DNA from: an uncultured SAR116 cluster alpha proteobacterium
GTDB lineage: Bacteria; Pseudomonadota; Alphaproteobacteria; Puniceispirillales; GCA-002684695
Direction of reading: 5' to 3'
Assembly: GCA_902539295.1 (NCBI GenBank)
Contig: CACBIM010000004.1
Location: 12,504 to 76,503, forward strand
DNA: 64,000 nt
Shown here: in pieces, positions 3,399 to 55,266 of the stretch
Layout of the letters: each line of letters starts with the position of its first letter
How positions within the stretch are numbered: the stretch's first letter is position 1
Translations under genes and position numbers: made by a program
The notes under the pieces: model-generated
The model's input: only the letters and a program-made list of their open reading frames with translations
What the model was told of the DNA's origin: nothing
Databases searched by the model: none

Positions 3399-5063
3399 TT
3401 ATTTTATCTCCCTTAATTCTCTTCTTAATATTTTACCTACATTCGACTTAGGTATTTCATCAACAATTTCAAGTAATTTTGGCACCTTATAAGCTGTAAG
3501 ATTATTTCTACAATGTTCTAAAATCTCATCTTTAGTGATTGTTTCACCCTCAACAACTGATACAAACAATTTTACTAGCTCCTGTCCATTATTTCCAGAC
3601 ACTCCAATACAGCCAGCCTCTAAGATTTTTTGATGCTGCATCGCAACTTCTTCTATATCACTTGGATAAACGTTAAATCCAGAAACAATTATCATGTCTT
3701 TTTTCCTATCAACAATTTGAAAGTATCCATCCTTTCTCATTTTTCCTATATCACCAGTTTTAAACCAACCGTCTTTTGTTAGAGCATTTTTGGTGTCTTT
3801 TTCGTTATTCCAGTAACCTCTCATGACTTGAGGACCTCTAATACAGATTTCACCCTCTTTTTCAGCTGATAAAATTTTTCCTTTATCATCTTGAATAGAC
3901 ATTTCAGTGGAAGGTAAAGGGAGCCCTATAGTATCGCTAAAAGTTTTCCCATCAACTGGATCGATAGATGCCGCTGGCGCAGTTTCAGAAAGACCATAAC
4001 CGACTACCATCAAACAACCAGTGATTTTTTGCCAACGATCACCAACAGATTTTTGTACAGGCATTCCACCAGCAATTGTTATATTGAGCTTTGAAAAGTC
4101 GCAATCCTGAAAATTTTTATCCTCCAATAACTTATTAAATAATGTATTTACGCCACTGATGAACGTAAACTTGTATTTTTTCAAAATTTTAACAAAACCC
4201 GGAATGTCCCTTGGATTTGTTATTAGAATATTATTTGCACCAAAATAAAAATAGACTACTGAATTACAAGTCAATGCAAATATATGGTAAAGTGGCAGTG
4301 CACAAATAGCTAAATCTTCACCAAATTTTAACTTTTCACCTAACCATTCCCTTACCTGAATAGCATTAGCTAAAACATTTCTATGGGACAAGATTGCAGC
4401 TTTAACTCCACCTGTTGTTCCTCCCGTATACTGAAGAAAAGCAATATCTTCTTTGTCAATTTTTTGCTCTTGGAATTTATGTTTTGACCCAATGTTAATT
4501 GCATCTTTAAAATTTACAGCATTTGGCAAAGAGTATTTTGGAACCATTTTCCTAATTTTTCTTAGGACAAAATTAATCATAATCCCTTTTAATCCTAAAA
4601 ATTCACCAACAGATGTAATTAAAACATTTTTAATTGATGTTTCTTTTAGTATTGATTGTAGATTTGATGCGAAATTTTCAGCTATAATTATTGTCTCAGA
4701 ACCTGAATCATTTAACTGAGCCTTCAATTCACGATGTGTAAATAAAGGATTTATATTATCTATAACAAGTCCTGATTTTAAAATTCCAAAAGTTGAAATC
4801 GGATACTGTAAAATATTGGGCATCATGATTGAAACTCTATCCCCTTTTTTTAATTTGAACTCATTTAATAAAAAAGAAGAAAGATTTTCAGAGTATGACT
4901 TTATTTCTTTAAAGCTAACCTTAACTCCAAAATTAGTAAAAGCAGGCTGATCATTAAATCGGTCACATGTTTGGTTAAACAAGTCTACTAATGACTTAAA
5001 CTCATCTAAATTAATTTCTGAGGGCACCCCCTCCGGATAGCTTTTTAACCAAACTTTTTCCAA
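3399..5063 (-). CDS. fadD: Long-chain fatty acid--CoA ligase (AMP-binding enzyme)
   Basis: 554 aa. AMP-binding signature LQYTGGTTGGVKAAILSHRN and a C-terminal ..GKILRRELRE tail typical of acyl-CoA synthetases. Confidence 0.85.
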   Translation of the reverse strand: MEKVWLKSYPEGVPSEINLDEFKSLVDLFNQTCDRFNDQPAFTNFGVKVSFKEIKSYSENLSSFLLNEFKLKKGDRVSIMMPNILQYPISTFGILKSGLVIDNINPLFTHRELKAQLNDSGSETIIIAENFASNLQSILKETSIKNVLITSVGEFLGLKGIMINFVLRKIRKMVPKYSLPNAVNFKDAINIGSKHKFQEQKIDKEDIAFLQYTGGTTGGVKAAILSHRNVLANAIQVREWLGEKLKFGEDLAICALPLYHIFALTCNSVVYFYFGANNILITNPRDIPGFVKILKKYKFTFISGVNTLFNKLLEDKNFQDCDFSKLNITIAGGMPVQKSVGDRWQKITGCLMVVGYGLSETAPAASIDPVDGKTFSDTIGLPLPSTEMSIQDDKGKILSAEKEGEICIRGPQVMRGYWNNEKDTKNALTKDGWFKTGDIGKMRKDGYFQIVDRKKDMIIVSGFNVYPSDIEEVAMQHQKILEAGCIGVSGNNGQELVKLFVSVVEGETITKDEILEHCRNNLTAYKVPKLLEIVDEIPKSNVGKILRRELREIK

Positions 5064-10339: not shown

Positions 10340-10915
10340 ATGAATAATGACAATAAATTACCAATCTCATTGAATCTTAAACAAGTTAATCCCTTACCTG
10401 GCAGAATTAAAAAGTACTTTGATGTTTGTTTGGAAAAACTTGGCTTAATTCCAAATGTTCTTTTAGCATATTCTCATAATACAGATAAATTAGATACTTT
10501 CACAAATATGTATAACGAAATAATGCTATCAGATAGCGGTCTTTCAAAACTTCAAAGAGAAATGATTGCAGTAGTTGTATCTTCTCTGAATAAATGCTTC
10601 TATTGTCAAGTTGCACATGGTGCTTCAACTAGAGAATTATCTTCTAATCCAGAATTGAGTGAAGAGTTAATAATGAATTATAATATTGCTAATATAACCG
10701 AAAAAGATAAACTAATGCTTCAATTTTCAGAAAAACTTACTCTATACAGCCATACAATTGAAGATAATGATAGAGATTTGTTAAGGAAAGCCGGTTTTGC
10801 GGATGAAGATATTTGGGATATTATTTCCGTTGTAGGTTTTTTTAATATGTCTAATCGAATTGCTTCAGGAACAAAGATGATACCAAATAAAGAGTATCAC
10901 TCAGCAGGGAGATGA
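10340..10915 (+). CDS. AhpD-core / carboxymuconolactone decarboxylase family peroxidase-related protein
   Basis: 191 aa with the CFYCQVAH (CxxC..H) motif characteristic of the AhpD-like fold. Confidence 0.7.
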   Translation: MNNDNKLPISLNLKQVNPLPGRIKKYFDVCLEKLGLIPNVLLAYSHNTDKLDTFTNMYNEIMLSDSGLSKLQREMIAVVVSSLNKCFYCQVAHGASTRELSSNPELSEELIMNYNIANITEKDKLMLQFSEKLTLYSHTIEDNDRDLLRKAGFADEDIWDIISVVGFFNMSNRIASGTKMIPNKEYHSAGR

Positions 10916-18844: not shown

Positions 18845-19891
18845 ATGTTAAAAAAAATATTAATTAGTTCTTTTGCTGGCTTTGCTTTGTTAAGCAGTGC
18901 TGTAAACGCACAAGTAAACCTAACTGCTGAGACTGCAAGCCCAGGTGGAGCAACGCATCTTTCGCCAGCACATATGACAGAAATTGCTGGTACCAAGGGT
19001 ATTGCTAATATTCAGCTAGCTGATGGACAGACTTTAACCAACTCGATCCAAAATGTAGCAGAAGGCAAAACAGATATTGCTGCAACTCCATATATTCTTC
19101 CATTTCTAATGAGCAGAGGTGTTGGACCATATGGCTCTTTAGGAAAAGAAAAAGGAGCCGAACTCGCAGAGAATTTAAGAGCGATAAACCCTTTTACTTT
19201 AGGTATATTTTTTCTATATGCGTATGATGCAAAAAATATTGGTGGATGGGATGACCTGAAGGGTCGCAAAATTTACAATGGTCCACCACGTGGAGGAGCT
19301 CTCACTAATGCCCGTAGTATGATACAAATTATTACTGGCCTAAAAGATGGTGAAGATTACGAAGGCTTGCAGGTTAACTGGGGGCAACAAGTTACTCTTG
19401 TAACAAGTGGTGAGCCAGATGCTATGGTTTTGCCAGAGTTATTTCCTGGGTCAAATTTAACATCTAGTACAGCTGCTGGCAAAATGACTGGTTGGTCAAT
19501 GCCAAAGGCAGTATATGAAGGTGAGACAATGCAAAATTATATGCAATCTCCTGGCAGCGCACCTTTCACTATTGAACTTGCCCAGCTGAATTCAATTATG
19601 GGGGACGACTGGAATTTCGTATCAGAAGATGGAACTTTTAGAGCATTTGCTACTATCGGTGGCAATGTAGTTCACAAGGATATGGATGAAGAACTTGTAT
19701 ATAATCTAGTATCAGCATATGTAGCTACTCTTGATGCTTTAAAAGCAAAGGCTCCTTTTGGAGATACAGTTGGCTTTGATGCTCCTATGCAAGGCATGTG
19801 TGGTAAAAATCCACTCAAATATCATCCTGGTGCAGCTCGCGCATGGATGGATGCAGGCTACAAATTAGATGAGTGCGCATTAGTAAAATAA
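18845..19891 (+). CDS. TAXI-family TRAP transporter solute-binding protein
   Basis: The ORF-track start at 18833 is TTG. The ATG at 18845 is preceded by GGGAGGA and gives the signal peptide MLKKILISSFAGFALLSSAVNA. The ..GGATHLSPAH.. pattern is typical of TAXI receptors, and the gene sits upstream of a fused TRAP permease. Confidence 0.8.
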   Translation: MLKKILISSFAGFALLSSAVNAQVNLTAETASPGGATHLSPAHMTEIAGTKGIANIQLADGQTLTNSIQNVAEGKTDIAATPYILPFLMSRGVGPYGSLGKEKGAELAENLRAINPFTLGIFFLYAYDAKNIGGWDDLKGRKIYNGPPRGGALTNARSMIQIITGLKDGEDYEGLQVNWGQQVTLVTSGEPDAMVLPELFPGSNLTSSTAAGKMTGWSMPKAVYEGETMQNYMQSPGSAPFTIELAQLNSIMGDDWNFVSEDGTFRAFATIGGNVVHKDMDEELVYNLVSAYVATLDALKAKAPFGDTVGFDAPMQGMCGKNPLKYHPGAARAWMDAGYKLDECALVK

Positions 19892-19906
19892 AGCTATATA
19901 TAATAT

Positions 19907-19932
19907 AATTAGCACCTTAATTGGTGCTAATT
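19907..19932 (+). promoter_or_regulatory. Intercistronic 10-bp hairpin between the TAXI binding-protein and permease genes
   Basis: AATTAGCACC-TTAATT-GGTGCTAATT is a perfect inverted repeat 16 nt after the binding-protein stop. No strong U-run follows it. It may act as an mRNA stabiliser or partial terminator. Confidence 0.5.
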
Positions 19933-19958
19933 ATATTTGTAAAATTTTAACACTTTCA

Positions 19959-22304
19959 ATGTCAGATTCCTTTGAACAACAGACAACTGAACCAGACTTT
20001 CCAAATAGGCTGGTCTATTTCCTAGCCCTAACCTTTGTAGCTTTAGGTATTTTAAACAGTACACCTCTTATTCCAGGATGGGACGAGTTATGGCGAGGTA
20101 TTACAGGGATCGAAAAACTCAAAATTAGAACATTCCCTACTGAATGGTTTTATCCGCTTATATTCTCATTGATGATGTTATTGGTTGCACTTCAACATTC
20201 AATGTGGCGATCTTGGAAGGGAACTAACAAAGCATTATTTGGAGCTTTTATGGATATCGCACTTGTTGTTTCTGCCGTAGCCGTTTCAATCACATATTTA
20301 ATTGAAATTGATAGTGTATGCTTGATCGACCTAATGAGTGGTGAGCGCGCAAGAATAATGGCAGAGACACTAAAGGCAGAAATTGAATTTGCTGAAACGA
20401 TGGGTTTGCCCAAACCTGACACTGTAGACGATCCCAAATGTGTCAGTACAACAGGTGTTTGGCTGGTTGCAATTATGGCTTCAGCTCTAATTGTTTTTCT
20501 AGGATATAACATTAAAGTATGGGGTTTTCCACTGGTCGCCATTTCTCTTGCTATAGCTACCTATACAATTGTCACTGTACTTGTATGGTATTTTCATGGT
20601 CCCGATGGCATCAATAAATATTTTGTAACCAAATTAGGTGGTGAACCTCGAACTTTTTTAGACGGTGTTCCTAATGTCCATGATGCACTTGTAAATAATG
20701 CATCCGGCTTTCTTGGACGTTTTATGCATGTAATAATGAATGTAGTCTTTCCATACATAATTTTAGGAGCGCTTTTTGGCAAATCTGCTGGAGGACAAAC
20801 ACTCATTAAACTAGCTTTTCGCTGGACGCGTAAATTACGTGGAGGGCCAGCACATGCAGCAATTGTAAGTTCAGCTATGTTTGGAACAATCACAGGAGGG
20901 CCAATCGTTAATGTCCTGTCAACAGGCGTGTTGACTATACCAATGATGATCAAACGAGGGTTTTCTCGTATATTTGCAGGTGGAATGGAAGCTGCTGCTT
21001 CATCTGGTGGATCGATTATGCCTCCTGTGATGGGTGTTGCAGCCTTTATTCTTGCAGCAATGACAGCTGTACCTTATCGGGATGTAATAATCGCTGCTAC
21101 TTTGCCAGCATTGGCTTATTTTTTGTGTCTGTTTCTTAGTGCTTCATTCCAATCCCGCAAACAAGGGATCGATGCTTTTGGTGAATTAACAGATGAGATG
21201 CACATCAGCGGTCAAGATATACTCCACTTATGTCAAATTATACTGCCAATGCTCTTAATATTGGTTTTGTTACTTACACCAAAAGATATGGTGGGATGTG
21301 GATTTATCTCGTCCCTTTTTGGTGCTGACACAATTATTGAAAATGGGCGTTGCCAAGTTATTTCACTTCCTTGGGTTTTCCAAATTTTTCAAAATGCCGC
21401 TGGTGATGCAGGAGCAACAGGTTGGTGGGCTGCAGCCCTTGTAATGACATTACTATTTCTAGATAAAGATTTTCGATCAAAGCCAGGTAAACTTTTAGAC
21501 GCTTTAGCTGAATCAGGGATAACTATATCAACACTCTATCTAATGTTTTTAGCAGTCACAGTGATTGATGTTTGTCTAAATTTTACTGGTCTTTCAAAAT
21601 TTGTTGCAATTGATGTGCTTCGTTTTCTTTTGTCATTTGACTTAGGTGGTGAGGGTGCAATCATCTTTCAATTTTTAGCTCTGCTAATGACTATGTTACT
21701 AGCAGTTTTATTAGGCATGGGGATGCCAGCAGTACCAGCGTATATTAATGTTGCACTGTTAATGGGGCCCCTTTTAGTAGGTCTTGGTATCGCAACTTTT
21801 ACAGCACATATGTTCATTTTTTACTTTGCTGTGGCGTCGGCGATTACTCCTCCAGTAGCACTAGCTGCCTTCGCAGCTTCAACAATAACAAAAGCTGAAC
21901 CGATGGCCACAGGTTTCAGTGCAGTTAGATCTGGAATTGTAATGTTTACAATTCCATTTGTATTCGCTTTCTACCCAGAACTTCTTCTTATAGATCAAGC
22001 CTTGATTGATCCAAAAAGTGCATCAAATGCACCACTGCCTGGATATGAAAATGGTATTGACTTTATTGGTCTAGCCTGGTTGTTATTACGCTTGGTTTTA
22101 TCTCTGTATCTAGTTGCGACAGCATTAGCACAATTTGACTCAAAATCACTTACCTTAGTGGAAGTCTTAATACGTCTTGTTCTGGCATTAGCAATTCTAA
22201 TGAAACCAGAAATCATTCAATTTGCTGCAATAATTTTTTCAGCTGGCCTTTTATCTTGGCACGTATGGAGTGCACGACAAGTATCTTATAACTCTAGAAT
22301 ATAA
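19959..22304 (+). CDS. TRAP transporter fused permease (TAXI-associated, small+large membrane components)
   Basis: 781 aa with more than 16 predicted TM helices, directly downstream of the TAXI receptor. Confidence 0.8.
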   Translation: MSDSFEQQTTEPDFPNRLVYFLALTFVALGILNSTPLIPGWDELWRGITGIEKLKIRTFPTEWFYPLIFSLMMLLVALQHSMWRSWKGTNKALFGAFMDIALVVSAVAVSITYLIEIDSVCLIDLMSGERARIMAETLKAEIEFAETMGLPKPDTVDDPKCVSTTGVWLVAIMASALIVFLGYNIKVWGFPLVAISLAIATYTIVTVLVWYFHGPDGINKYFVTKLGGEPRTFLDGVPNVHDALVNNASGFLGRFMHVIMNVVFPYIILGALFGKSAGGQTLIKLAFRWTRKLRGGPAHAAIVSSAMFGTITGGPIVNVLSTGVLTIPMMIKRGFSRIFAGGMEAAASSGGSIMPPVMGVAAFILAAMTAVPYRDVIIAATLPALAYFLCLFLSASFQSRKQGIDAFGELTDEMHISGQDILHLCQIILPMLLILVLLLTPKDMVGCGFISSLFGADTIIENGRCQVISLPWVFQIFQNAAGDAGATGWWAAALVMTLLFLDKDFRSKPGKLLDALAESGITISTLYLMFLAVTVIDVCLNFTGLSKFVAIDVLRFLLSFDLGGEGAIIFQFLALLMTMLLAVLLGMGMPAVPAYINVALLMGPLLVGLGIATFTAHMFIFYFAVASAITPPVALAAFAASTITKAEPMATGFSAVRSGIVMFTIPFVFAFYPELLLIDQALIDPKSASNAPLPGYENGIDFIGLAWLLLRLVLSLYLVATALAQFDSKSLTLVEVLIRLVLALAILMKPEIIQFAAIIFSAGLLSWHVWSARQVSYNSRI

Positions 22305-22315
22305 GTAAAACCAAA

Positions 22316-24295
22316 CTAAGTATTGAATAATATTCCGGTAGGCAACGGAACGTAAAGAATATTAGCAAATAAATAATAAGCCAAAGTAGTTATAAAAATG
22401 GACTGGCAAAATGATAGCAAAGCATTTTTTAAATTCATTTTTTCTTTATTGAGATACGAGCTCATTAAAAATATAAAAATGGCACTGCTTATATAAAAAC
22501 CAACAAACTGAATAAATAATATAAATCCAGCTATAATTAAAAAACCAATAATTACTCGATTTTGTTCCTTTACATTAAAAAATATATTAATTTTTTTTGG
22601 TGTAAAAAATCCCTTAAAGATGATCGCAATTCCCAAGATAGCTGTACAATATACGCAAAAGTTAACGAAAAGAACTCCATAAAAACTTAAATCAACAATT
22701 GACCATGCTACAATCGCTGTCATGCAAAGAGTAATTAAACCCATCACTACGTCAGCATTAAGTGCACCATGACTTGTTTCTTGTTCTTCCGTGTTTTGAT
22801 TATTCAGAACACGTCTTCTAAAAAGAATAGGCCACAAGGCAGTAATTACACATAAACCTATAAGCACTATGCTTATAGGACTACTTATCATATAGAATAC
22901 TACTCCTCCTTTCGCACCACCTATCATTGTTGATTGGACCAAGCCTTCTTCGATATAGGGCCCTAAAATAAAACCCAGCACAAGTGGTGCTGGATGGTAG
23001 GAAAGCTTATTAAGAAAAAAACCAATACCACCAAATATCAGCATAACCCAAACATCAAGAAGATTGTTTCGTATTGCATATGAACCAAGAACTGTCATTA
23101 AAAGGATGATAGGCGCAAGTGATTTTGCGGGAATATTTATCAATAGGCTAAACAAAAAAGACCCAAGTGATCCAAAAATTAATATAGCAAAAGCTGCCAC
23201 AAATAATCCCATCATAAATGTGTAAGTAATGCCTCCATAAGTTGCAAAGAGATCTACACCAGGTTGCATTCCATGCAACATTAGAGCGCCAAGTATTATA
23301 GCGGCAGGTGGTGACCCTGGTATCCCAAGTGTCAAAAGTGGGATTAATGATCCTGGTGCCATCGCACTGTTTGCTGCCTCTGATGCAGCCACTCCCCTTA
23401 TTGTTCCTTTTCCAAATTCTTCAGGGTTCTTATCCCATCGCGTAGCCTCACTATAAGAGACCATGCTAGCTATGTTACCTCCAGCACCAGGTGCTATCCC
23501 TACTACTAGTCCTATCAAAGCGGATCGGATCAATAAAAACGGCATCTTTAAAAGATCAAAAATAGTCGCAAAAAGAATTTTCAGACTAGGGCGAATTTTT
23601 TCCCCTGTGTAATTGTCTTGTCCTTTACCAATTATCGTAGAGAGAATTTCTGGCAAACAGAAAAATCCAATTAATGCACCAGCTAAAGATATTCCACTTT
23701 GCAACTCTGGAAATCCAAAAGTAAGTCTCGCATCTCCAGATAGTGAAGCCATGCCAACAGCAGATAGGATGAGACCAATAAATCCAGTTAAATAACCTTT
23801 TAGCAAGCTTCCACTTGAGAGAACAGAAATTATAGTAAGACCAAAAATTCCAAGCCAAAAATACTCTGGCGGCCCAAATTTTAGCGATAATTCTGCAAGC
23901 GGCTCTGCTAACGTCGCAAGGACTATATTAGCAATTACACTGCCGATAAATGACGCAAATGCTGCAGTCACTAATGCTTGCTGAGCTTTCCCTTTCTGAG
24001 CTAATGGAAATCCATCGAATGTCGTTGCGATCGCTGCTGGAGTACCGGGCGTGTTAATTAAGATTGCTGGTATTGCATCTGCATACATAGCTCCAACATA
24101 AATTCCAGCGAGCATTATTAGCCCCGCAGCTGGCTCCATTCCAAAAGTGAAGGGAACTAACAAGGCTAGACCCATTGTGGCTGTGAGACCAGGCATGGAT
24201 CCAAAAACAATACCTAAAAAAGTACCAAAAATAATCAACAGCAAATTCCATCCCTCGAGGGCATGAAATAAGCCGTTGATTATCCCTTCAAACAC
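22316..24295 (-). CDS. tctA: Tripartite tricarboxylate transporter permease TctA with C-terminal TctB-like extension
   Basis: 659 aa. The N-terminal ~500 aa is TctA-like (..GSMPGLTATMG.., ..GIPGSPPAA..). The last ~160 aa add 4 TM helices ending ..YVPLPTGILF, which is TctB-like. Confidence 0.75.
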   Translation of the reverse strand: MFEGIINGLFHALEGWNLLLIIFGTFLGIVFGSMPGLTATMGLALLVPFTFGMEPAAGLIMLAGIYVGAMYADAIPAILINTPGTPAAIATTFDGFPLAQKGKAQQALVTAAFASFIGSVIANIVLATLAEPLAELSLKFGPPEYFWLGIFGLTIISVLSSGSLLKGYLTGFIGLILSAVGMASLSGDARLTFGFPELQSGISLAGALIGFFCLPEILSTIIGKGQDNYTGEKIRPSLKILFATIFDLLKMPFLLIRSALIGLVVGIAPGAGGNIASMVSYSEATRWDKNPEEFGKGTIRGVAASEAANSAMAPGSLIPLLTLGIPGSPPAAIILGALMLHGMQPGVDLFATYGGITYTFMMGLFVAAFAILIFGSLGSFLFSLLINIPAKSLAPIILLMTVLGSYAIRNNLLDVWVMLIFGGIGFFLNKLSYHPAPLVLGFILGPYIEEGLVQSTMIGGAKGGVVFYMISSPISIVLIGLCVITALWPILFRRRVLNNQNTEEQETSHGALNADVVMGLITLCMTAIVAWSIVDLSFYGVLFVNFCVYCTAILGIAIIFKGFFTPKKINIFFNVKEQNRVIIGFLIIAGFILFIQFVGFYISSAIFIFLMSSYLNKEKMNLKNALLSFCQSIFITTLAYYLFANILYVPLPTGILFNT

Positions 24296-24331
24296 CTAAA
24301 ATTATTACTTGTTAATTTATCGTCATATTTA

Positions 24332-25270
24332 CTATTGAACGAACTTCTTGACGATTGGTTCCCACGCAACCTTTTTTTCGGCAATTAATTTTTGTGACGA
24401 TGCAGAGTCAAGTGCGATTGGCATAATACCAACTTTCAACTTAACTTCTTTAGTTTCGTCAAGACCGGCAATTTTAAGGAATGCTTTTTCAAGTACCTTT
24501 ATATGTGCCTCAGGAGTTCCCTTTGGTACACCAACTCCATGATAAACAGAGGAGTAAAGTGGATATCCATATGATTTAAAAGTAGGCACATCAGGACTTA
24601 CCTGTATTGGTTTCTCAGTAGCATATGCGAGGGTCCTTACCTTATCACCATGAGGCATTTTTTCATTAGGACCAAACCAACTCGCCATTGTATGTCCACC
24701 GAGCAGAGCAGTCTGTTTTGGTTTGCCTCCTTTGTGCGGGACATAGGTTGTTTCGATACCAGCCATCATATCAAATTGCAGGTTAGCTATATGCGTCGCA
24801 TCCCAAGTTCCTGAACCACCAATTGTGAGCGCACCAGGATTTTTCTTTGCATAATCAATAAGATCATCCAAAGTTTTAAATGGAGAATCTTGTAGAACCG
24901 TTAAACCAAAAGGTATTTGTTGAAAAAGAACAACTGGTATAATGTCTTCTGTCTCATACCCAGGCTCTCGAGCTAGTGGTTGTAAAATAATGTGAGGAAT
25001 GTTAATCCCTGACATAAAGTAGCCATCAGCTTTTTGCTTTACTAAGTTGGCCCAACCTATAGATCCACCTGCACCAGGTTTATACTGAATAACAATCTTT
25101 TTACCAAGTTCCTTCTCAAGATGGGGTTGTTGGTGACGTGCCCTAACATCTGATCCTCCACCTGCTGCGAAAGTAATTTGGTAAACAACATTTTTTTCTG
25201 GAAAGTCTGCTAAAGAAGGCATGCAGAGAAATAGTAAAGGGGCTAATAAGGTAATTAAAAATTTATACAT
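24332..25270 (-). CDS. tctC: Tripartite tricarboxylate transporter substrate-binding protein (TctC/Bug family)
   Basis: 312 aa. Signal peptide, then ..AGGGSDVRAR.. and ..YKPGAGGSIG.., a pattern typical of Bug/TctC proteins. Confidence 0.8.
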   Translation of the reverse strand: MYKFLITLLAPLLFLCMPSLADFPEKNVVYQITFAAGGGSDVRARHQQPHLEKELGKKIVIQYKPGAGGSIGWANLVKQKADGYFMSGINIPHIILQPLAREPGYETEDIIPVVLFQQIPFGLTVLQDSPFKTLDDLIDYAKKNPGALTIGGSGTWDATHIANLQFDMMAGIETTYVPHKGGKPKQTALLGGHTMASWFGPNEKMPHGDKVRTLAYATEKPIQVSPDVPTFKSYGYPLYSSVYHGVGVPKGTPEAHIKVLEKAFLKIAGLDETKEVKLKVGIMPIALDSASSQKLIAEKKVAWEPIVKKFVQ

Positions 25271-25492
25271 GGTACCTCCATTATATACGTTAAAATTTGA
25301 CGGTTTGAATAAATTTTAAAGAGATTGCTTGAATTTTACTTACTAAAGTCTACTAGTTAACTTCCATACGACTTTACAGCACAGCAACTTTAAAAATCAA
25401 CGTTCCCGTAATTTATAGAAACCCAAAAGAAAATTAAATTCAACAAAAAATCTAAATAAATAATGCTTAGTTGGGAAGAGATCGAGGTGTAA

Positions 25493-25569
25493 TGGCGACT
25501 CCGGGAAGACTCGAACTCCCAACCCTCTGATTAGAAGTCAGATGCTCTATCCAGTTGAGCTACGGAGCC
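25493..25569 (-). tRNA. tRNA-Arg (anticodon TCT)
   Basis: The reverse complement GGCTCCG-TA-GCTC-AACTGGATA-GAGC-A-TCTGA-CTTCTAA-TCAGA-GGGTT-GGGAG-TTCGAGT-CTTCC-CGGAGTC-G-CCA folds as a 77-nt cloverleaf with an encoded CCA. Confidence 0.9.
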
Positions 25570-25577
25570 GCATAAAT
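25538..25577. repeat. Direct repeat copy 1 (tRNA-Arg nt 1-32 plus 8 nt upstream)
   Basis: TCAGATGCTCTATCCAGTTGAGCTACGGAGCCGCATAAAT is identical to 26729-26768. Confidence 0.95.
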
Positions 25578-25656
25578 ACGTAGTTATCACAAGGGTAAAA
25601 ATTAGTAAATAATTATAACTCTTGTGAGAAATATTTATTTTAGTTAAATGCAATTT

Positions 25657-26724
25657 TTAATTAATAGACAAATCTTCAAAATCTTTACTTCGTTTTATAA
25701 AGTGTTCTAAATTATTTTTGATTTTTATTTTTATTTTTCTTTGGAAACTTAAAAGTTTTTTTCTATTGTAGAATTTTAAATATTCAGAATAATCTGATAG
25801 TATATCGTATTCATTTTTTTGAATGAAAATTTCGATTTCTCTTACAATATTGTTGATTTGATTTAGTAGGTCTTTTTTTTCTTTTAAGGAAATACCTTTG
25901 GGTAAGATTTCTATTCCAAAGTTTTTAATTATTGGCATGAACTGACTAAGTAGCATAGATGAAAAGAAAGAATATTCTATAACATTTTCATAATCTGGAT
26001 ATTTATTATTATAATAAAATAAATAAGGAAGATGGGAATTTACAAATGGATCTAATATCATTCGCATCTTAATATTCAAAGATTTTTGATTTTCACTCAT
26101 TTGATCAAAAAAAATAAAAGTTCTTATATCCAAAGCATTCAAATTGATATTACCAAAAAATATGCCTTTATCTGAAGGGATAGGAATATTTAATAGATTT
26201 AGGTTTTTATTTAATCCATTATCAAAAAGATTTAAAATTAATTTCCATAATATTGAATAAATTGGAAGGTATTTGAAGCTAATTTTTAATTGGCTAAATG
26301 TATTATTGAAATTTTTCCAGTCCAATTCACTATTTCTTTCAAAGATTCTTTGAACAACATGGTGACTAATTAAAAATAATGGATTTCCATTATCATCAAA
26401 ACTCGAAAAATCATCTAAAGCAATATTAAAACCCCATATACTTGCAGCTAACATCTCTTCTTTTCTAAAGTTAAAATTCGGGTTTCCTTCTAAAAAATCT
26501 AATCTGACCCATCCAAGTGCAGGCTTTCTCTTTGATCCAAATTCAACCCAATGTATAAAATGATTCCAAGGACTGTTAAATTTTAGCAAAATATTTTTAT
26601 GAACTTTATACAAATTTGATGAATTAGATATCCCTTTGCTAAAAGAGCCAGCCATCGACCAATCTAGTTCAAGATATTTTCTTATAAATTGTTTTGTAAG
26701 ACCTTTGGCTAAAGATTTATCCAT
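25657..26724 (-). CDS. Hypothetical protein (orphan cargo of the tRNA-Arg insertion)
   Basis: 355 aa, Asn/Lys/Phe-rich, with no motif I can assign. The start codon lies 4 nt from the displaced tRNA 5'-half copy. Confidence 0.5.
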   Translation of the reverse strand: MDKSLAKGLTKQFIRKYLELDWSMAGSFSKGISNSSNLYKVHKNILLKFNSPWNHFIHWVEFGSKRKPALGWVRLDFLEGNPNFNFRKEEMLAASIWGFNIALDDFSSFDDNGNPLFLISHHVVQRIFERNSELDWKNFNNTFSQLKISFKYLPIYSILWKLILNLFDNGLNKNLNLLNIPIPSDKGIFFGNINLNALDIRTFIFFDQMSENQKSLNIKMRMILDPFVNSHLPYLFYYNNKYPDYENVIEYSFFSSMLLSQFMPIIKNFGIEILPKGISLKEKKDLLNQINNIVREIEIFIQKNEYDILSDYSEYLKFYNRKKLLSFQRKIKIKIKNNLEHFIKRSKDFEDLSIN

Positions 26725-26728
26725 TTGA

Positions 26729-26768
26729 TCAGATGCTCTATCCAGTTGAGCTACGGAGCCGCATAAAT
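26729..26768. repeat. Direct repeat copy 2 (displaced tRNA-Arg 5' half plus upstream DNA)
   Basis: A perfect 40-nt match to 25538-25577. Weaker similarity continues about 33 nt further on the upstream side (TTATCA[C/T]AAGG, TAGTAAAT). Confidence 0.95.
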
Positions 26769-26879
26769 GTTAATTATCATAAGGTCAATTAATAGTAAAT
26801 TAGTATATTGAAATTGTTTAGAATTTACAGAATAACAATTTATGCTAATGTAAATTTTAACCTAATTTTTTCTCTTTTA

Positions 26880-28040
26880 ATGAATCAAAATAATAATTAT
26901 TGGAAAGCTCGAACTCCATGTTTTCAAGGAGCATTTTTTTTATTATTTATAGTTGGAATTTATTTTGTCCATATTCCATGGAATATTGAAAGACTGGGTA
27001 TATCTGAATTAGAATTAGGAATTGGCATCCTAATTTTTGGAATATCAAATTTTGTTTCAAATCAATTAACTGGAAGATTAATTGTCCCATTAATAGGAAC
27101 AACAAAATCTATGACCATTGGAATTTCAATTGTTTCTTTTTGTCCCTTTTTACTAATAAGCGCCCCTAACTATGAATTGTTTCTTTTATCTTGGATTCCT
27201 TTTGGGGCAGCAGTTGGCCTTTACGTCCCTTCAGCACAAACACAAATATCTTTAATAGAAAGCAAAACATCTAAAATTATCACACCTATTTACCAAGCAT
27301 TTTATAGTTTAGGTTCTTTGTGTGGTGCTGTAATAGCAGGAGTTTTTATAAAGAATATTCCTGATCCAAAAATCACATTTGCATCAATTGGTTTTTGTTT
27401 AATCATTAGCTCAATATATATTTTATTTTTTGGTCTTGAAGCAAAGCTTGATCTAAAAACCAAAATAGTAAAATTCAAATTTCCTGACAAAAATATTTTA
27501 ATTTTTGGATTTATGATGATGGTTACTTTTGCAACATTTGGAATAATTATTGACTGGTCACCCGTTTGGATAACCAAAGATTTAAAAGCACCTATTTACG
27601 TAGGTGGATTAGTTATAATTTTTTTTAATTTGGGTGAAATTATTGCTCGCCTTTTATCGAATAAATTAATTAGCCGTTTCAATGAGAAGATTGTTGGAGG
27701 CTACTTTAGTATAATAGCTTCTATAATTTTAGCATCGTCAATAATTATCTTTGATATTTATTTAATAGCTTTTTGTGCTTTCATTTTTGGGTTTGGAACA
27801 GCTAACTTTCTTGGCATAGTTTTACGTGAGGGTGTTAAAGCTAGCCAAGAAACCCTTAGTGTTTCTGTTTCAAATTTAATGACAATTGGTTTCTCAGGAT
27901 TTATATTTGGACCTGCGCTTATTGGTTTTTCAGCTGAATATTTTGGACTAACCTTTAATATGTATATGTTATGTTTAATATGGTTTTTGAATGCTACCTT
28001 ATTCATTTACGTGAAAAATAAATTGCAAACAGTTATATAA
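26880..28040 (+). CDS. MFS-type transporter
   Basis: The ORF track starts at TTG 26808. The ATG at 26880 (MNQNNNYWK..) is the more plausible start. About 12 TM helices. Confidence 0.65.
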   Translation: MNQNNNYWKARTPCFQGAFFLLFIVGIYFVHIPWNIERLGISELELGIGILIFGISNFVSNQLTGRLIVPLIGTTKSMTIGISIVSFCPFLLISAPNYELFLLSWIPFGAAVGLYVPSAQTQISLIESKTSKIITPIYQAFYSLGSLCGAVIAGVFIKNIPDPKITFASIGFCLIISSIYILFFGLEAKLDLKTKIVKFKFPDKNILIFGFMMMVTFATFGIIIDWSPVWITKDLKAPIYVGGLVIIFFNLGEIIARLLSNKLISRFNEKIVGGYFSIIASIILASSIIIFDIYLIAFCAFIFGFGTANFLGIVLREGVKASQETLSVSVSNLMTIGFSGFIFGPALIGFSAEYFGLTFNMYMLCLIWFLNATLFIYVKNKLQTVI

Positions 28041-40902: not shown

Positions 40903-40977
<75 letters not shown>

Positions 40978-54122: not shown

Positions 54123-55112
54123 TCATGGAATGCCTCCACTGCTCATAACAGATCGTACACGATCAAGCTGCCCATGTGAATACCTCATCAACATCGAAAG
54201 TGTCCTGTGTCCACTAAGCATTGCAACTTCGGGAACAGTCAGCCCCATTTCGAAAAATGATGATATTGCCTCATGGCGCAGATCATGGAAACGAACATTC
54301 TTCAAACCTGCTTTAAGTCTGATACGATCAAAGGCAAGTCGAACTGCATTGGAAGAAAGTGTAAACAACCTCCCCTCACCTTCGTTATGCAAGACAGACA
54401 ATTTTGAATAAAGATCATTAGCAATCGGTAAAGAGCGATAGTGACCATTCTTTGTTTTGTGGACTGTAAATACTTTATTTTTAAGGTCGATATCTTTCCA
54501 TTCAAGAGAGAGGATTTCACTGCGCCTGAGAGCAGTTCTCAATGCAATTAAAACAATCAAATAAATATCTTTTCTTCCCGTTTTAAGACACGTAGAGAGA
54601 AGTCTTTCTTGTTGTTTGGCCTGTAATCTTCTGATTGCTTTGAGCGGTTTTAACGGAATCCTGACGCGTTCCAGAAGTCCTTCTGGCACGTCCCAATCCC
54701 ACTCTCTTTTCGCAATATTAAGAGCATGCCTTAATACAAAAAACTGACGGTGAAGAGAAGATGGTTTGACAACTTTCAATCGTTCATCACGATAATGAGC
54801 AATATCTTGAACTGATAATTGTTCAAGTGATTTTTTTACCCAAACAAGCCTCAAAAAAGCTTTAACAACCCATCCGTCAGGATGGCCTTTTTCTTTTTTT
54901 GAAATAACGCAATTTTGATATTTTGTTAAAACCTCAGCTAAACTTTTTGGTTTGTATTTAAATAGAGGATTATCTTCTTTTAAAATGCGGGCTTCCTGCA
55001 TACATGCCCAGTGACGTGCTGATTGATGTGTCAAAAATGATTTTGAGAGAGACTGGTCTTTCAGGCGAATCTGTACCTGGTAGAGTTTATTTCGATAGCG
55101 TATTGATGCCAT
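54123..55112 (-). CDS. int: Tyrosine-type site-specific integrase
   Basis: 329 aa. C-terminal catalytic pattern ..ALRTALRRSEIL.. (Arg), ..HDLRHEAISSF.. (H-x-x-R) and ..GHRTLSMLMRYSH (His..Tyr). It lies directly next to the tRNA-Val 3' end. Confidence 0.9.
   Translation of the reverse strand: MASIRYRNKLYQVQIRLKDQSLSKSFLTHQSARHWACMQEARILKEDNPLFKYKPKSLAEVLTKYQNCVISKKEKGHPDGWVVKAFLRLVWVKKSLEQLSVQDIAHYRDERLKVVKPSSLHRQFFVLRHALNIAKREWDWDVPEGLLERVRIPLKPLKAIRRLQAKQQERLLSTCLKTGRKDIYLIVLIALRTALRRSEILSLEWKDIDLKNKVFTVHKTKNGHYRSLPIANDLYSKLSVLHNEGEGRLFTLSSNAVRLAFDRIRLKAGLKNVRFHDLRHEAISSFFEMGLTVPEVAMLSGHRTLSMLMRYSHGQLDRVRSVMSSGGIP

Positions 55113-55191: not shown

Positions 55192-55266
<75 letters not shown>

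What the first reader, a model, noticed from the sequence alone, without database searches (positions are those of the whole stretch)
25493..26800. Single-gene insertion at tRNA-Arg(TCT) that duplicates the 5' half of the tRNA, not the 3' end
A perfect 40-nt direct repeat (25538-25577 and 26729-26768) brackets a 1151-bp insert holding one orphan ORF. The repeat consists of tRNA nt 1-32 plus 8 nt of upstream DNA. It ends exactly at the junction between the anticodon stem 5' strand and the anticodon loop.

Classical tRNA-targeting elements duplicate the 3' portion. Here the intact gene uses the element-proximal 5' half, and the displaced copy keeps what looks like the ancestral upstream region. 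Similarity between the two upstream flanks continues for about 33 nt at roughly 70%, which suggests the incoming DNA carried a homologous tRNA-promoter region from a diverged relative.

No integrase or other recombinase is present, so the mechanism is unclear. Options include integration in trans, homologous capture, or a decayed element.
Basis: partly seen in the sequence, partly recalled or inferred. Interest (0 to 1): 0.6.

Follow-up and report, generated by a model that had tools for sequence, protein, structure and literature searches.

The report
Phage-type attachment scars around one gene
A single accessory gene sits upstream of a SAR11 tRNA-Arg gene between two copies of the tRNA's 5' half, and these copies match the attachment site of marine pelagiphages that are already known to integrate this way, so it is a well-resolved but fairly ordinary example of a tRNA-linked gene cassette.

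Summary
A perfect 40-nt direct repeat (25538-25577 and 26729-26768) consists of tRNA-Arg(TCT) nt 1-32 plus 8 upstream nt. It brackets 1151 bp that hold one gene, ORF355.

Metagenomic T7-like pelagiphage contigs (L021, L022, L029) carry this tRNA 5' half (nt 1-30 plus 4-8 upstream nt) just downstream of a 261-aa tyrosine integrase gene. In L021/L022 a T7-like RNA polymerase gene follows. Zhao et al. (bioRxiv 10.1101/410191) showed that such phages rebuild the host tRNA with a phage-borne 5' end.

Close relatives show the same locus in other states:
- an intact tRNA with no stump (L039, L040, L044);
- older, decayed stumps followed by a different gene (L013, L042, L043, L045, L023);
- a perfect stump with three other genes (L025).

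The repeat is therefore best read as an attL/attR-type pair around a small cargo unit without an integrase. The cargo is not phage-like: 24.7% GC against about 35% in the phage contigs, no homology to them, and the opposite orientation to phage genes.

Partial tRNA repeats marking cassette insertions in SAR11 islands have been reported (PMC11796062). I score this as a new member of a known kind, of moderate interest. Whether such units move using a phage integrase supplied in trans remains open.

The parts
25493..25569 (-). Intact tRNA-Arg(TCT), 77 nt with CCA encoded. It is the attR-like junction: the 3' part is chromosomal and the 5' half plus promoter come from the insert side.
   Evidence: ARAGORN; Rfam RF00005, 64.7 bits. 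The 3' part is unique in the window.
25538..25577 (.). Direct repeat copy 1 (the core): tRNA nt 1-32 plus 8 upstream nt (GCATAAAT).
   Evidence: 38 of the 40 nt are identical to the attP of phage contigs L021/L022, and the phage similarity continues past this copy to 25592 (L022) or 25616 (L021).
25578..25656 (-). Insert-borne upstream region 'A' of the intact tRNA, containing promoter-like ATTTACT...TGTGATAAC. The first ~15-20 nt (ACGTAGTTATCAC) resemble the phage P' arm and the L025 flank; the distal part resembles host tRNA-Arg promoters.
   Evidence: Alignments. L025 homology with the window ends at 25593. That this is a functional promoter is inferred.
25657..26724 (-). ORF355, the only cargo gene. 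It belongs to an uncharacterised family of ~330-350 aa proteins with invariant G63, H122, R126, R130 and G187.
   Evidence: no Pfam, PHROG or PADLOC hit; 72 remote homologues; alignment A1; AlphaFold2 model with A1 has pLDDT 88 and pTM 0.89; no significant fold match.
26729..26768 (.). Direct repeat copy 2. 26729-26760 is the displaced tRNA 5' half (the stump, attL-like); 26761-26768 is the shared 8 nt.
   Evidence: ARAGORN finds no tRNA here. The next bases are TCAA then the ATG of ORF355.
26769..26879 (-). Chromosomal (ancestral) tRNA-Arg upstream/promoter region 'B'. It now points into the stump and ORF355.
   Evidence: Contiguous with the MFS gene and 94% identical in L013. A B-type sequence precedes intact tRNAs in L024. 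The promoter role is inferred.
26880..28040 (+). MFS transporter gene; the conserved right flank used as the synteny anchor.
   Evidence: Pfam MFS_1, 7e-19. Synteny MFS-AIG2-NDUS4-HpcH in L004-L013 and L036-L045.
24332..25270 (-). TctC gene; left flank on the 3' side of the tRNA, part of a 40% GC transporter block.
   Evidence: Pfam TctC, 2e-36. 92.9% nucleotide identity over 24259-25459 in L025, which has different cargo upstream of the tRNA.

Best explanation
The repeat is an attL/attR-type pair. It was left by site-specific recombination of a tyrosine integrase from the T7-like (HTVC019P-type) pelagiphage group, whose attachment site is the 5' half of tRNA-Arg(UCU) plus a few upstream bases.

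The incoming DNA carried its own promoter-like arm ('A') and a copy of tRNA nt 1-32. Recombination inside that identity block placed it upstream of the chromosomal tRNA. The working tRNA now consists of an insert-derived promoter and 5' half joined to the chromosomal 3' part. The original promoter ('B') and 5' half were pushed 1.19 kb away as a stump, which now reads directly into the cargo gene ORF355; its start codon is 4 nt downstream.

The unit has no integrase. Either it was moved by an integrase supplied in trans by a pelagiphage, or it is what remains after deletion or recombination between repeated cores in a larger array.

**Shown:** the repeat; its match to phage attP sites next to integrase genes; presence/absence and alternative cargo at the same locus in relatives.

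**Inferred:** that an integrase made this particular junction; where the crossover occurred; that the displaced tRNA promoter drives ORF355; what ORF355 does. Its function is unknown. It is an accessory gene of a family that also occurs next to restriction-modification and resolvase genes.
For: 1. Phage contigs L021 and L022 have a 261-aa integrase (PF00589, 1e-26), then ~45 nt, then tRNA-Arg(TCT) nt 1-30 plus GCATAAAT+ACGTAATACC, then a T7-like RNA polymerase gene. L029/L030 from IMG/VR carries a 93%-identical integrase followed by the same tRNA nt 1-30 plus GCAT.
2. The upstream edge of phage-host identity (GCATAAAT|) coincides with the upstream edge of the window repeat. Phage similarity runs further on the intact-tRNA copy (53 nt at 94% for L022; 79 nt at 85% for L021) than on the stump copy (38 nt). 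This is expected if 'A' is the element arm.
3. Zhao et al. [quoted passage not shown] The int-RNAP spacer of HTVC120P carries the 5' part of a tRNA-Arg(TCT)-like sequence.
4. Relatives sharing the MFS flank at ~93.5% identity show three states: an intact tRNA with no stump (L039, L040, L044); a decayed stump followed by an FG-GAP protein gene (L042, L043, L045, L013); and the tRNA part deleted (L036).
5. L025 shares the TctC flank. It has a perfect stump ending in the phage-type bases ...CATCT|AGTT, then three membrane-protein genes, then an ACGTAATA-type arm and the intact tRNA.
6. L023 has two stumps in tandem. The second has an upstream arm like that of phage L029.
7. All junctions fall at tRNA nt ~29-32.
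8. The family alignment confirms the ORF355 start, so the gene abuts the core.
Against: - No integrase or phage gene lies between the repeats.
- The window stump ends ...CATCTGA|TCAA. It does not end in the phage-type ...CATCT|AGTT, so none of the phages found is the exact donor.
- The distal part of arm 'A' (-26 to -50) looks more like host tRNA promoters (69-74%) than like the phage arms (50-56%). A chromosomal donor therefore cannot be excluded.
- Phages with a 94%-identical integrase (L032, L033) have no tRNA half between int and RNAP.
- ORF355 was seen only once, so no circular form and no second genomic context is known.
- The exact unoccupied allele of this haplotype (B promoter + intact tRNA + MFS386) was not found. 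The unoccupied relatives carry an extra MFS387 gene and a 'C' promoter.
Confidence: 0.68

Rival explanations
1. Import without an integrase. A linear fragment from another SAR11 strain (tRNA, its promoter 'A' and the neighbouring gene ORF355) was incorporated. One crossover was homologous, in or left of the tRNA. The other end was illegitimate or microhomology-assisted and happened to fall in the anticodon stem, duplicating the 5' half.
For: The distal part of 'A' resembles host promoters (L004 69%, L024 74%) more than phage arms. Cargo GC (24.7%) is typical of SAR11 flexible genes and unlike the phage contigs. SAR11 islands are generally thought to turn over by homologous recombination (PMC11796062). 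No integrase lies in the insert.
Against: At least four independent junction types (window; L025 and L023 stump 2; L042 group with L013 and L023 stump 1; the phage attPs) all end at tRNA nt ~29-32. Illegitimate ends would not cluster like this. The upstream edge of the repeat coincides with the edge of phage attP identity. L025 and L023 stumps carry the phage-specific bases AG(TT).
Confidence: 0.17
2. Decayed prophage. A complete pelagiphage integrated here and nearly all of it was deleted, with ORF355 as a surviving phage gene.
For: The att-type repeats match phage attP. Loss of phage structural genes after integration is the model proposed for SAR11 tRNA-anchored variable regions in the 2026 preprint.
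Against: ORF355 is in the tRNA-sense direction. In L022-type phages int and RNAP are antisense to the tRNA half. tBLASTn of ORF355 against all phage loci gives nothing below E=3. There is no PHROG hit and no BFVD fold match. GC is 24.7% against 34.5-35% for the phage contigs. The position next to the stump, where the 3' end of int should lie, is occupied by the 5' end of ORF355.
Confidence: 0.08
3. Assembly or chimera artefact that duplicated 40 nt of the tRNA.
For: The source appears to be a draft assembly: the identical protein P0001 is listed with a longest contig of 134 kb. Many metagenome contigs break at this tRNA.
Against: The repeat is only 40 nt, with 1151 bp of unique coding sequence between the copies. 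The same architecture appears in independent assemblies from different projects (L025, L023, L013, L042, L043, L045).
Confidence: 0.02
4. A tRNA intron or homing element inserted in the anticodon loop.
For: The break lies at the junction of the anticodon stem and loop.
Against: ORF355 is not followed by the 3' half. Instead a complete second promoter and 5' half follow, and the 3' part occurs only once. No Rfam intron family was hit.
Confidence: 0.01

Closest known systems
Integration of HTVC019P-type (T7-like, Autographiviridae) pelagiphages into SAR11 tRNA genes (Zhao et al., bioRxiv 10.1101/410191; HTVC120P targets tRNA-Arg)
   Same: A tyrosine integrase with attP beside it. attP carries the 5' part of the target tRNA, so integration rebuilds the gene with an element-borne 5' end and leaves the host 5' part as a stump. 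The same host clade. L021, L022 and L029 carry this very tRNA-Arg(TCT) 5' half.
   Different: Here there is no phage between the repeats, only one non-phage gene and no integrase. The stump junction (nt 32, then TCAA) differs from the phage junctions found (nt 30, then AGTT). The published tRNA-Arg phage HTVC120P carries a different tRNA-Arg(TCT)-like sequence, in the opposite orientation relative to int.
SAR11 genomic islands bounded by tRNAs with partial tRNA repeats marking cassette insertion (Molina-Pardines et al. 2025, PMC11796062)
   Same: [quoted passage not shown] No canonical mobile-element genes. TTT transporter cassettes nearby.
   Different: In the passages I read, that paper does not say which half of the tRNA is repeated and does not link the repeats to a phage attP. 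This locus gives base-level junctions, an attP match and several allelic states.
Tycheposons and tRNA-linked islands of Prochlorococcus (Hackl et al., bioRxiv 10.1101/2020.12.28.424599)
   Same: Islands seeded at a few tRNAs, including tRNA-Arg(TCT). Partial tRNAs separate successive integrations. Degenerate remnants occur without integrases. Cargo is of adaptive or unknown function.
   Different: Tycheposons carry their own tyrosine recombinase and replication module, and none is present here. The host phylum differs. I did not establish from the text read which half of the tRNA they repeat.
Classical tRNA-targeting prophages and islands (P4, P22, L5, pSAM2 types; Williams 2002 Nucleic Acids Res 30:866, cited from my own knowledge, paper not held)
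   Same: A tyrosine integrase, a core inside a tRNA gene, and direct repeats of tRNA sequence flanking the element.
   Different: Those elements carry the 3' part of the tRNA and sit downstream of the gene. Here the 5' part and the promoter are duplicated and the insert sits upstream.
Integron gene cassettes
   Same: Single promoterless genes, tightly bounded by recombination sites, stacked in arrays (L023) and plausibly expressed from a fixed upstream promoter.
   Different: There is no IntI, attI or attC. The recombination site is a tRNA 5' half. This is an analogy only.

Membership tests
att-site pair of a pelagiphage-type tyrosine integrase (tRNA 5'-half targeting) | Direct repeats flanking the insert are identical to a segment of the adjacent tRNA gene | tested here: met
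   40/40 repeat = tRNA nt 1-32 + 8 nt
att-site pair of a pelagiphage-type tyrosine integrase (tRNA 5'-half targeting) | The same core occurs as attP next to an integrase gene in a phage genome | tested here: met
   L021, L022 and L029/L030 have an integrase (PF00589) followed by tRNA-Arg(TCT) nt 1-30 plus 4-8 upstream nt; a T7-like RNAP gene follows in L021/L022
att-site pair of a pelagiphage-type tyrosine integrase (tRNA 5'-half targeting) | Presence/absence polymorphism of the insert at the same chromosomal site | tested here: met
   L039, L040 and L044 have an intact tRNA with no stump. L042, L043, L045, L013, L025 and L023 have stumps with other cargo. The unoccupied allele of the exact window haplotype was not found.
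att-site pair of a pelagiphage-type tyrosine integrase (tRNA 5'-half targeting) | Integrase encoded within the integrated element | tested here: not met
   Only ORF355 lies between the repeats. It has no integrase similarity. The nearest integrase, at 54123-55112, is beside tRNA-Val and shares only ~25% identity with the L022 integrase over ~157 aa.
att-site pair of a pelagiphage-type tyrosine integrase (tRNA 5'-half targeting) | Integrase-dependent integration or excision demonstrated | not testable with these tools
   Needs reads spanning circular or empty junctions, or an experiment
Prophage (complete or remnant) of an HTVC019P-type pelagiphage | Phage genes (RNAP, DNA polymerase, capsid and others) between attL and attR | tested here: not met
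   No tBLASTn hit of ORF355 to phage loci; no PHROG hit; GC 24.7% against ~35%
Tycheposon | Element-encoded tyrosine recombinase next to the full-length tRNA, plus a replication or cargo module | tested here: not met
   No recombinase in 25578-26728. Only the partial-tRNA flank feature is shared.
Integron cassette | IntI integrase, attI site and attC (59-be) hairpin sites | tested here: not met
   No IntI-like gene is adjacent. The boundaries are tRNA halves, not attC.
tRNA intron (group I or other) in the anticodon loop | The tRNA 3' half resumes after the insert; intron RNA structure | tested here: not met
   The 3' half is present once only. Rfam finds only tRNAs.

The most novel reading that the evidence does not exclude
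SAR11 may host integrase-less cassettes of one or a few genes. Each would carry a mimic of a pelagiphage attP: a tRNA-Arg(UCU) promoter plus the tRNA 5' half. They would be inserted, stacked and deleted upstream of the tRNA by phage integrases supplied in trans. This would resemble an integron whose recombination site is a tRNA half and whose cargo is expressed from the displaced tRNA promoter.

Hints are as follows. ORF355 starts 4 nt after the stump. The FG-GAP gene follows its stump in the same orientation in L023, L042, L043, L045 and L013. L023 shows a one-gene unit bounded by two stumps. The window, L025 and the phages share similar proximal arms but have unrelated cargo.
Probability: 0.22. 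Interest if true: 0.7.

Novelty: new member of a known kind. Interest (0 to 1): 0.4.

Why it matters
How SAR11, which lacks plasmids, transposons and usually prophages, acquires its very large flexible gene pool is still debated. Recent work argues from indirect evidence that phages insert cargo at tRNA anchors.

This locus provides base-level evidence for that idea at one site. The scars match a real pelagiphage attP. The site exists in unoccupied, freshly occupied and decayed states among close relatives. The cargo differs between strains.

It also shows that, for these phages, islands grow on the 5' (promoter) side of the tRNA, and that the essential tRNA for AGA codons is then driven by imported DNA. 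The finding extends known biology rather than overturning it.

Tried and rejected
- **Exact 32-mer in IMG/VR:** 0 hits, because phage copies end at nt 30. The 30-mer search then found L029.
- **32-mer followed by a non-C base in the GTDB representative genomes:** one hit only, L003, a 'Betaproteobacteria' MAG. The stump there lies next to an N and a CusCBA-type efflux operon, which is not informative for SAR11.
- **Exact-protein look-ups of ORF355 and the window NDUS4:** nothing on record.
- **MFS homologues at 60% identity or less (L014-L020):** different genomic contexts, not usable for synteny.
- **BLAST of the tRNA region against cultured phage genomes:** swamped by phage-encoded full tRNAs.
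- **Viral scan with core plus the ACGTA arm:** 0 hits.
- **Integrase relatives P0194 (L032, L033):** no tRNA half after int.
- **ORF355 function:**
  - No Pfam, PHROG or PADLOC family.
  - The PDB profile search found nothing.
  - The single-sequence AlphaFold2 model was poor, pLDDT 35.
  - The alignment-based model was good, pLDDT 88, but had no significant PDB or BFVD fold match.
  - Weak partial hits to HigB2, PrpT and 'cytotoxic translational repressor' (probability 0.2 or less) are not enough to call it a toxin.
- **Generic sigma-70 and terminator scan:** uninformative.
- **Island cargo of L023 and L025 against phage loci:** no similarity.
- **Intron and assembly-artefact readings:** rejected on anatomy and on independent assemblies.
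Full report
**1.

ARAGORN and Rfam place one intact tRNA-Arg(TCT) on the minus strand at 25493-25569. The repeat finder reports a 40/40 identical direct repeat at 25538-25577 and 26729-26768. The 32-nt 5' half occurs exactly twice in the window, and none of 100 shuffles gave any match. The 45-nt 3' remainder occurs once.

Read on the tRNA strand, the repeat is 8 upstream nt (ATTTATGC) plus GGCTCCGTAGCTCAACTGGATAGAGCATCTGA. It ends at the last base of the 5' strand of the anticodon stem. Between the copies are 1151 bp at 24.5% GC. They hold one 355-aa ORF, 25657-26724 on the minus strand. Its ATG is 4 nt after the stump and its stop is 79 nt before the other repeat copy.

**2. What flanks it**

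- **Right flank:** MFS transporter, AIG2-like, NDUS4 and HpcH genes. This order is conserved in SAR11-type metagenome contigs.
- **Left flank (3' of the tRNA):** a 40% GC block of TRAP and TTT transporter genes, in a window that is otherwise about 30% GC.

**3. The key result: a phage attP with the same tRNA half**

I scanned the metagenome collection with the tRNA 5' end plus the 8 upstream nt. It returned five contigs. Two of them, L021 and L022, contain no tRNA gene. They have, in order:
- a 261-aa tyrosine integrase (PF00589, 1e-26, with the LGHS...RYAH C-terminus);
- ~45 nt of spacer;
- tRNA-Arg(TCT) nt 1-30 followed upstream by GCATAAAT+ACGTAATACC;
- a T7-like RNA polymerase gene, then primase-helicase and DNA polymerase genes.

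An IMG/VR contig (L029/L030) carries a 93%-identical integrase followed by the same 30 nt plus GCAT.

This layout matches the one described for HTVC019P-type pelagiphages, with attP downstream of int and, in L021/L022, upstream of RNAP. For those phages Zhao et al. showed experimentally that:
- they integrate into SAR11 tRNA-Cys, -Leu and -Arg genes;

In the cultured tRNA-Arg phage HTVC120P, I read in the int-RNAP spacer the 5' part of a tRNA-Arg(TCT)-like sequence, running through the anticodon loop. Duplication of the 5' half is therefore the expected signature of this phage group. It is not an anomaly.

**4. The fit to the window is close but not exact**

- The upstream edge of identity between the L021/L022 attP and a B-type host site is GCATAAAT|. 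This is the same edge as in the window repeat.
- Phage similarity extends further on the copy next to the intact tRNA (53 nt at 94% for L022; 79 nt at 85% for L021) than on the stump copy (38 nt). This is expected if the 'A' flank is the element arm.
- The other edge differs by two bases. The phages end ...CATCT|AGTTGAAC. The window stump ends ...CATCTGA|TCAA-ATG.
- Further out (-26 to -50), 'A' resembles host tRNA-Arg promoters (69-74%) more than the phage arms (50-56%).
- Phage L029 also carries promoter-like -35 and -10 elements in its arm (read), so promoter likeness does not discriminate between host and element origin.

**5. Comparative states of the locus**

| State | Contigs | Flank shared with the window |
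|---|---|---|
| Intact tRNA, no stump, next to promoter 'C' + MFS387 + MFS386 | L039, L040, L044 | MFS386 flank, ~93.5% |
| Decayed stump (2-5 mismatches, junction ...CATCC\|AATAAAAATA) followed in the same direction by an FG-GAP secreted-protein gene | L042, L043, L045, L013 | MFS386 flank, ~93.5% (L013: 94% from 26724 rightwards) |
| tRNA part deleted | L036 | MFS386 flank, ~93.5% |
| Same FG-GAP gene after a decayed stump, then a second perfect stump with an upstream arm like phage L029 and ending in phage-type AG | L023 | none (more divergent lineage) |
| Perfect stump ending AGTT, three membrane-protein genes at 24% GC, an ACGTAATA-type arm, then the intact tRNA | L025 | TctC flank, 93% |
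| tRNA ~1.4 kb from MFS with other genes between, no stump | L004-L011 (MFS 75% identical) | right flank only |

The site is therefore polymorphic, carries alternative cargo, and shows both fresh and old scars. All junctions fall at tRNA nt ~29-32.

**6. The cargo**

ORF355 has no Pfam, PHROG or PADLOC match. The word-indexed search found only one weak relative. The exhaustive HMMER search found 72 remote homologues of similar length.

The alignment shows invariant G63, H122, R126, R130 and G187, and a conserved N-terminus MDxSLAKGLTK. This fixes the start codon at 26724. With that alignment AlphaFold2 gives a confident model, pLDDT 88 and pTM 0.89. Foldseek finds nothing significant in PDB or BFVD.

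One homologue lies among HsdM, resolvase, SEC-C and DUF3800 genes. Function remains unknown; an accessory, possibly conflict-related role is only a guess.

ORF355 is not phage-like:
- tBLASTn finds no hit to the phage loci.
- Its GC is 24.7%, against 34.5-35% for the phage contigs.
- It is sense to the tRNA, whereas int and RNAP in L022-type phages are antisense to the tRNA half.

**7. Interpretation**

The best-supported reading (about 0.68) is that the repeat is an attL/attR-type pair made by a pelagiphage-family tyrosine integrase acting on the 5' half of tRNA-Arg(UCU). It encloses a small cargo unit without an integrase.

I cannot decide between two routes:
- The unit entered on its own, using a phage integrase in trans.
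- It is what is left after deletions or core-to-core recombination in a larger array. L023 shows that such arrays exist.

The tight packing favours the first route or a cassette-like history: 4 nt from core to start codon, and a first gene co-oriented with the stump both here and in the FG-GAP case. The sample is small.

The rivals are integrase-independent import with one illegitimate end (0.17), a decayed prophage with ORF355 as a phage gene (0.08), an assembly artefact (0.02) and a tRNA intron (0.01). Evidence for and against each is given in the Rival explanations section.

**8. Relation to the literature**

- Partial tRNA repeats marking cassette insertion in SAR11 genomic islands have been reported (PMC11796062).
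- A 2026 preprint proposes phage-mediated insertion at tRNA anchors from indirect evidence.
- Prochlorococcus islands and tycheposons behave analogously.

What this locus adds is the match to an actual phage attP, the 5'-side geometry and a set of allelic states. I therefore rate it as a new member of a known kind, with interest about 0.4.

Noticed in passing
window 40903-40977, 54123-55112, 55192-55266: There are two near-identical full tRNA-Val(GAC) genes (1 mismatch, unrelated flanks). A 329-aa tyrosine integrase (PF00589, 3e-27) lies immediately 3' of the second one. The ~14 kb between them holds mostly ORFs without Pfam hits, plus TerB-like and GDSL-like genes. This looks like a classical integrase-bearing island on the 3' side of the tRNA.
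   Followed up: partly
window ~19000-25300: A block at 40% GC, against ~30% elsewhere, holds a DctM-type TRAP fusion, TctA/TctB and TctC. It lies directly 3' of tRNA-Arg. L025 shares it, while other relatives have different DNA there, and several metagenome contigs (L006-L008) end 3 nt past the tRNA 3' end. The 3' side of this tRNA is therefore variable too.
   Followed up: partly
L021 ~2745-2835; L022 ~2625-2715; L029 ~10660-10745: In the phage attP regions the tRNA half is flanked by 10-12 nt inverted repeats. Their sequence differs between phages (ggtattacgtat/atacgtaatacc against aatcaggaat/attcctgatt). After nt 30 comes AGTTGAAC(C/T)GAGC, an imperfect complement of tRNA nt 10-17. These may be integrase-binding or structural elements.
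   Followed up: no
L032 1040-1330; L033 860-1150: Phage contigs whose integrase is 94% identical to that of L022 have no tRNA half between int and RNAP; the spacer is only 22 nt. Either attP lies elsewhere in these phages or it has been lost.
   Followed up: no
L036-L045 (for example L040 375-2703) against window 26769-26880: Close relatives carry a tandem paralogue, MFS387, 4 nt upstream of MFS386. The two are about 66% identical at nucleotide level. The window and L013 lack MFS387 and have a different tRNA promoter allele ('B' rather than 'C'). Homology with L036-L045 starts exactly at 26879.
   Followed up: partly
L003 7658-7690: A MAG labelled Betaproteobacteria TMED41 carries the identical 32-nt tRNA-Arg 5' half as a stump. 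It lies next to an N and a CusCBA-type efflux operon. This could be a scaffolding artefact, a mis-binned contig or an island scar in another lineage.
   Followed up: partly
L035 (HTVC120P, MH598807) 4100-4200: The int-RNAP spacer of HTVC120P holds a tRNA-Arg(TCT)-like 5' part that runs through the anticodon loop. It is in the same direction as int, which is the opposite orientation to L022.
   Followed up: no
window 25657-26724 and alignment A1: ORF355 defines an unannotated protein family: 72 representatives at E<=1e-3, length ~330-350 aa, motif S-x-H-x-[IV]-x-R-x-[FL]-[QE]-R, and a confident AlphaFold2 model with no known fold match.
   Followed up: partly
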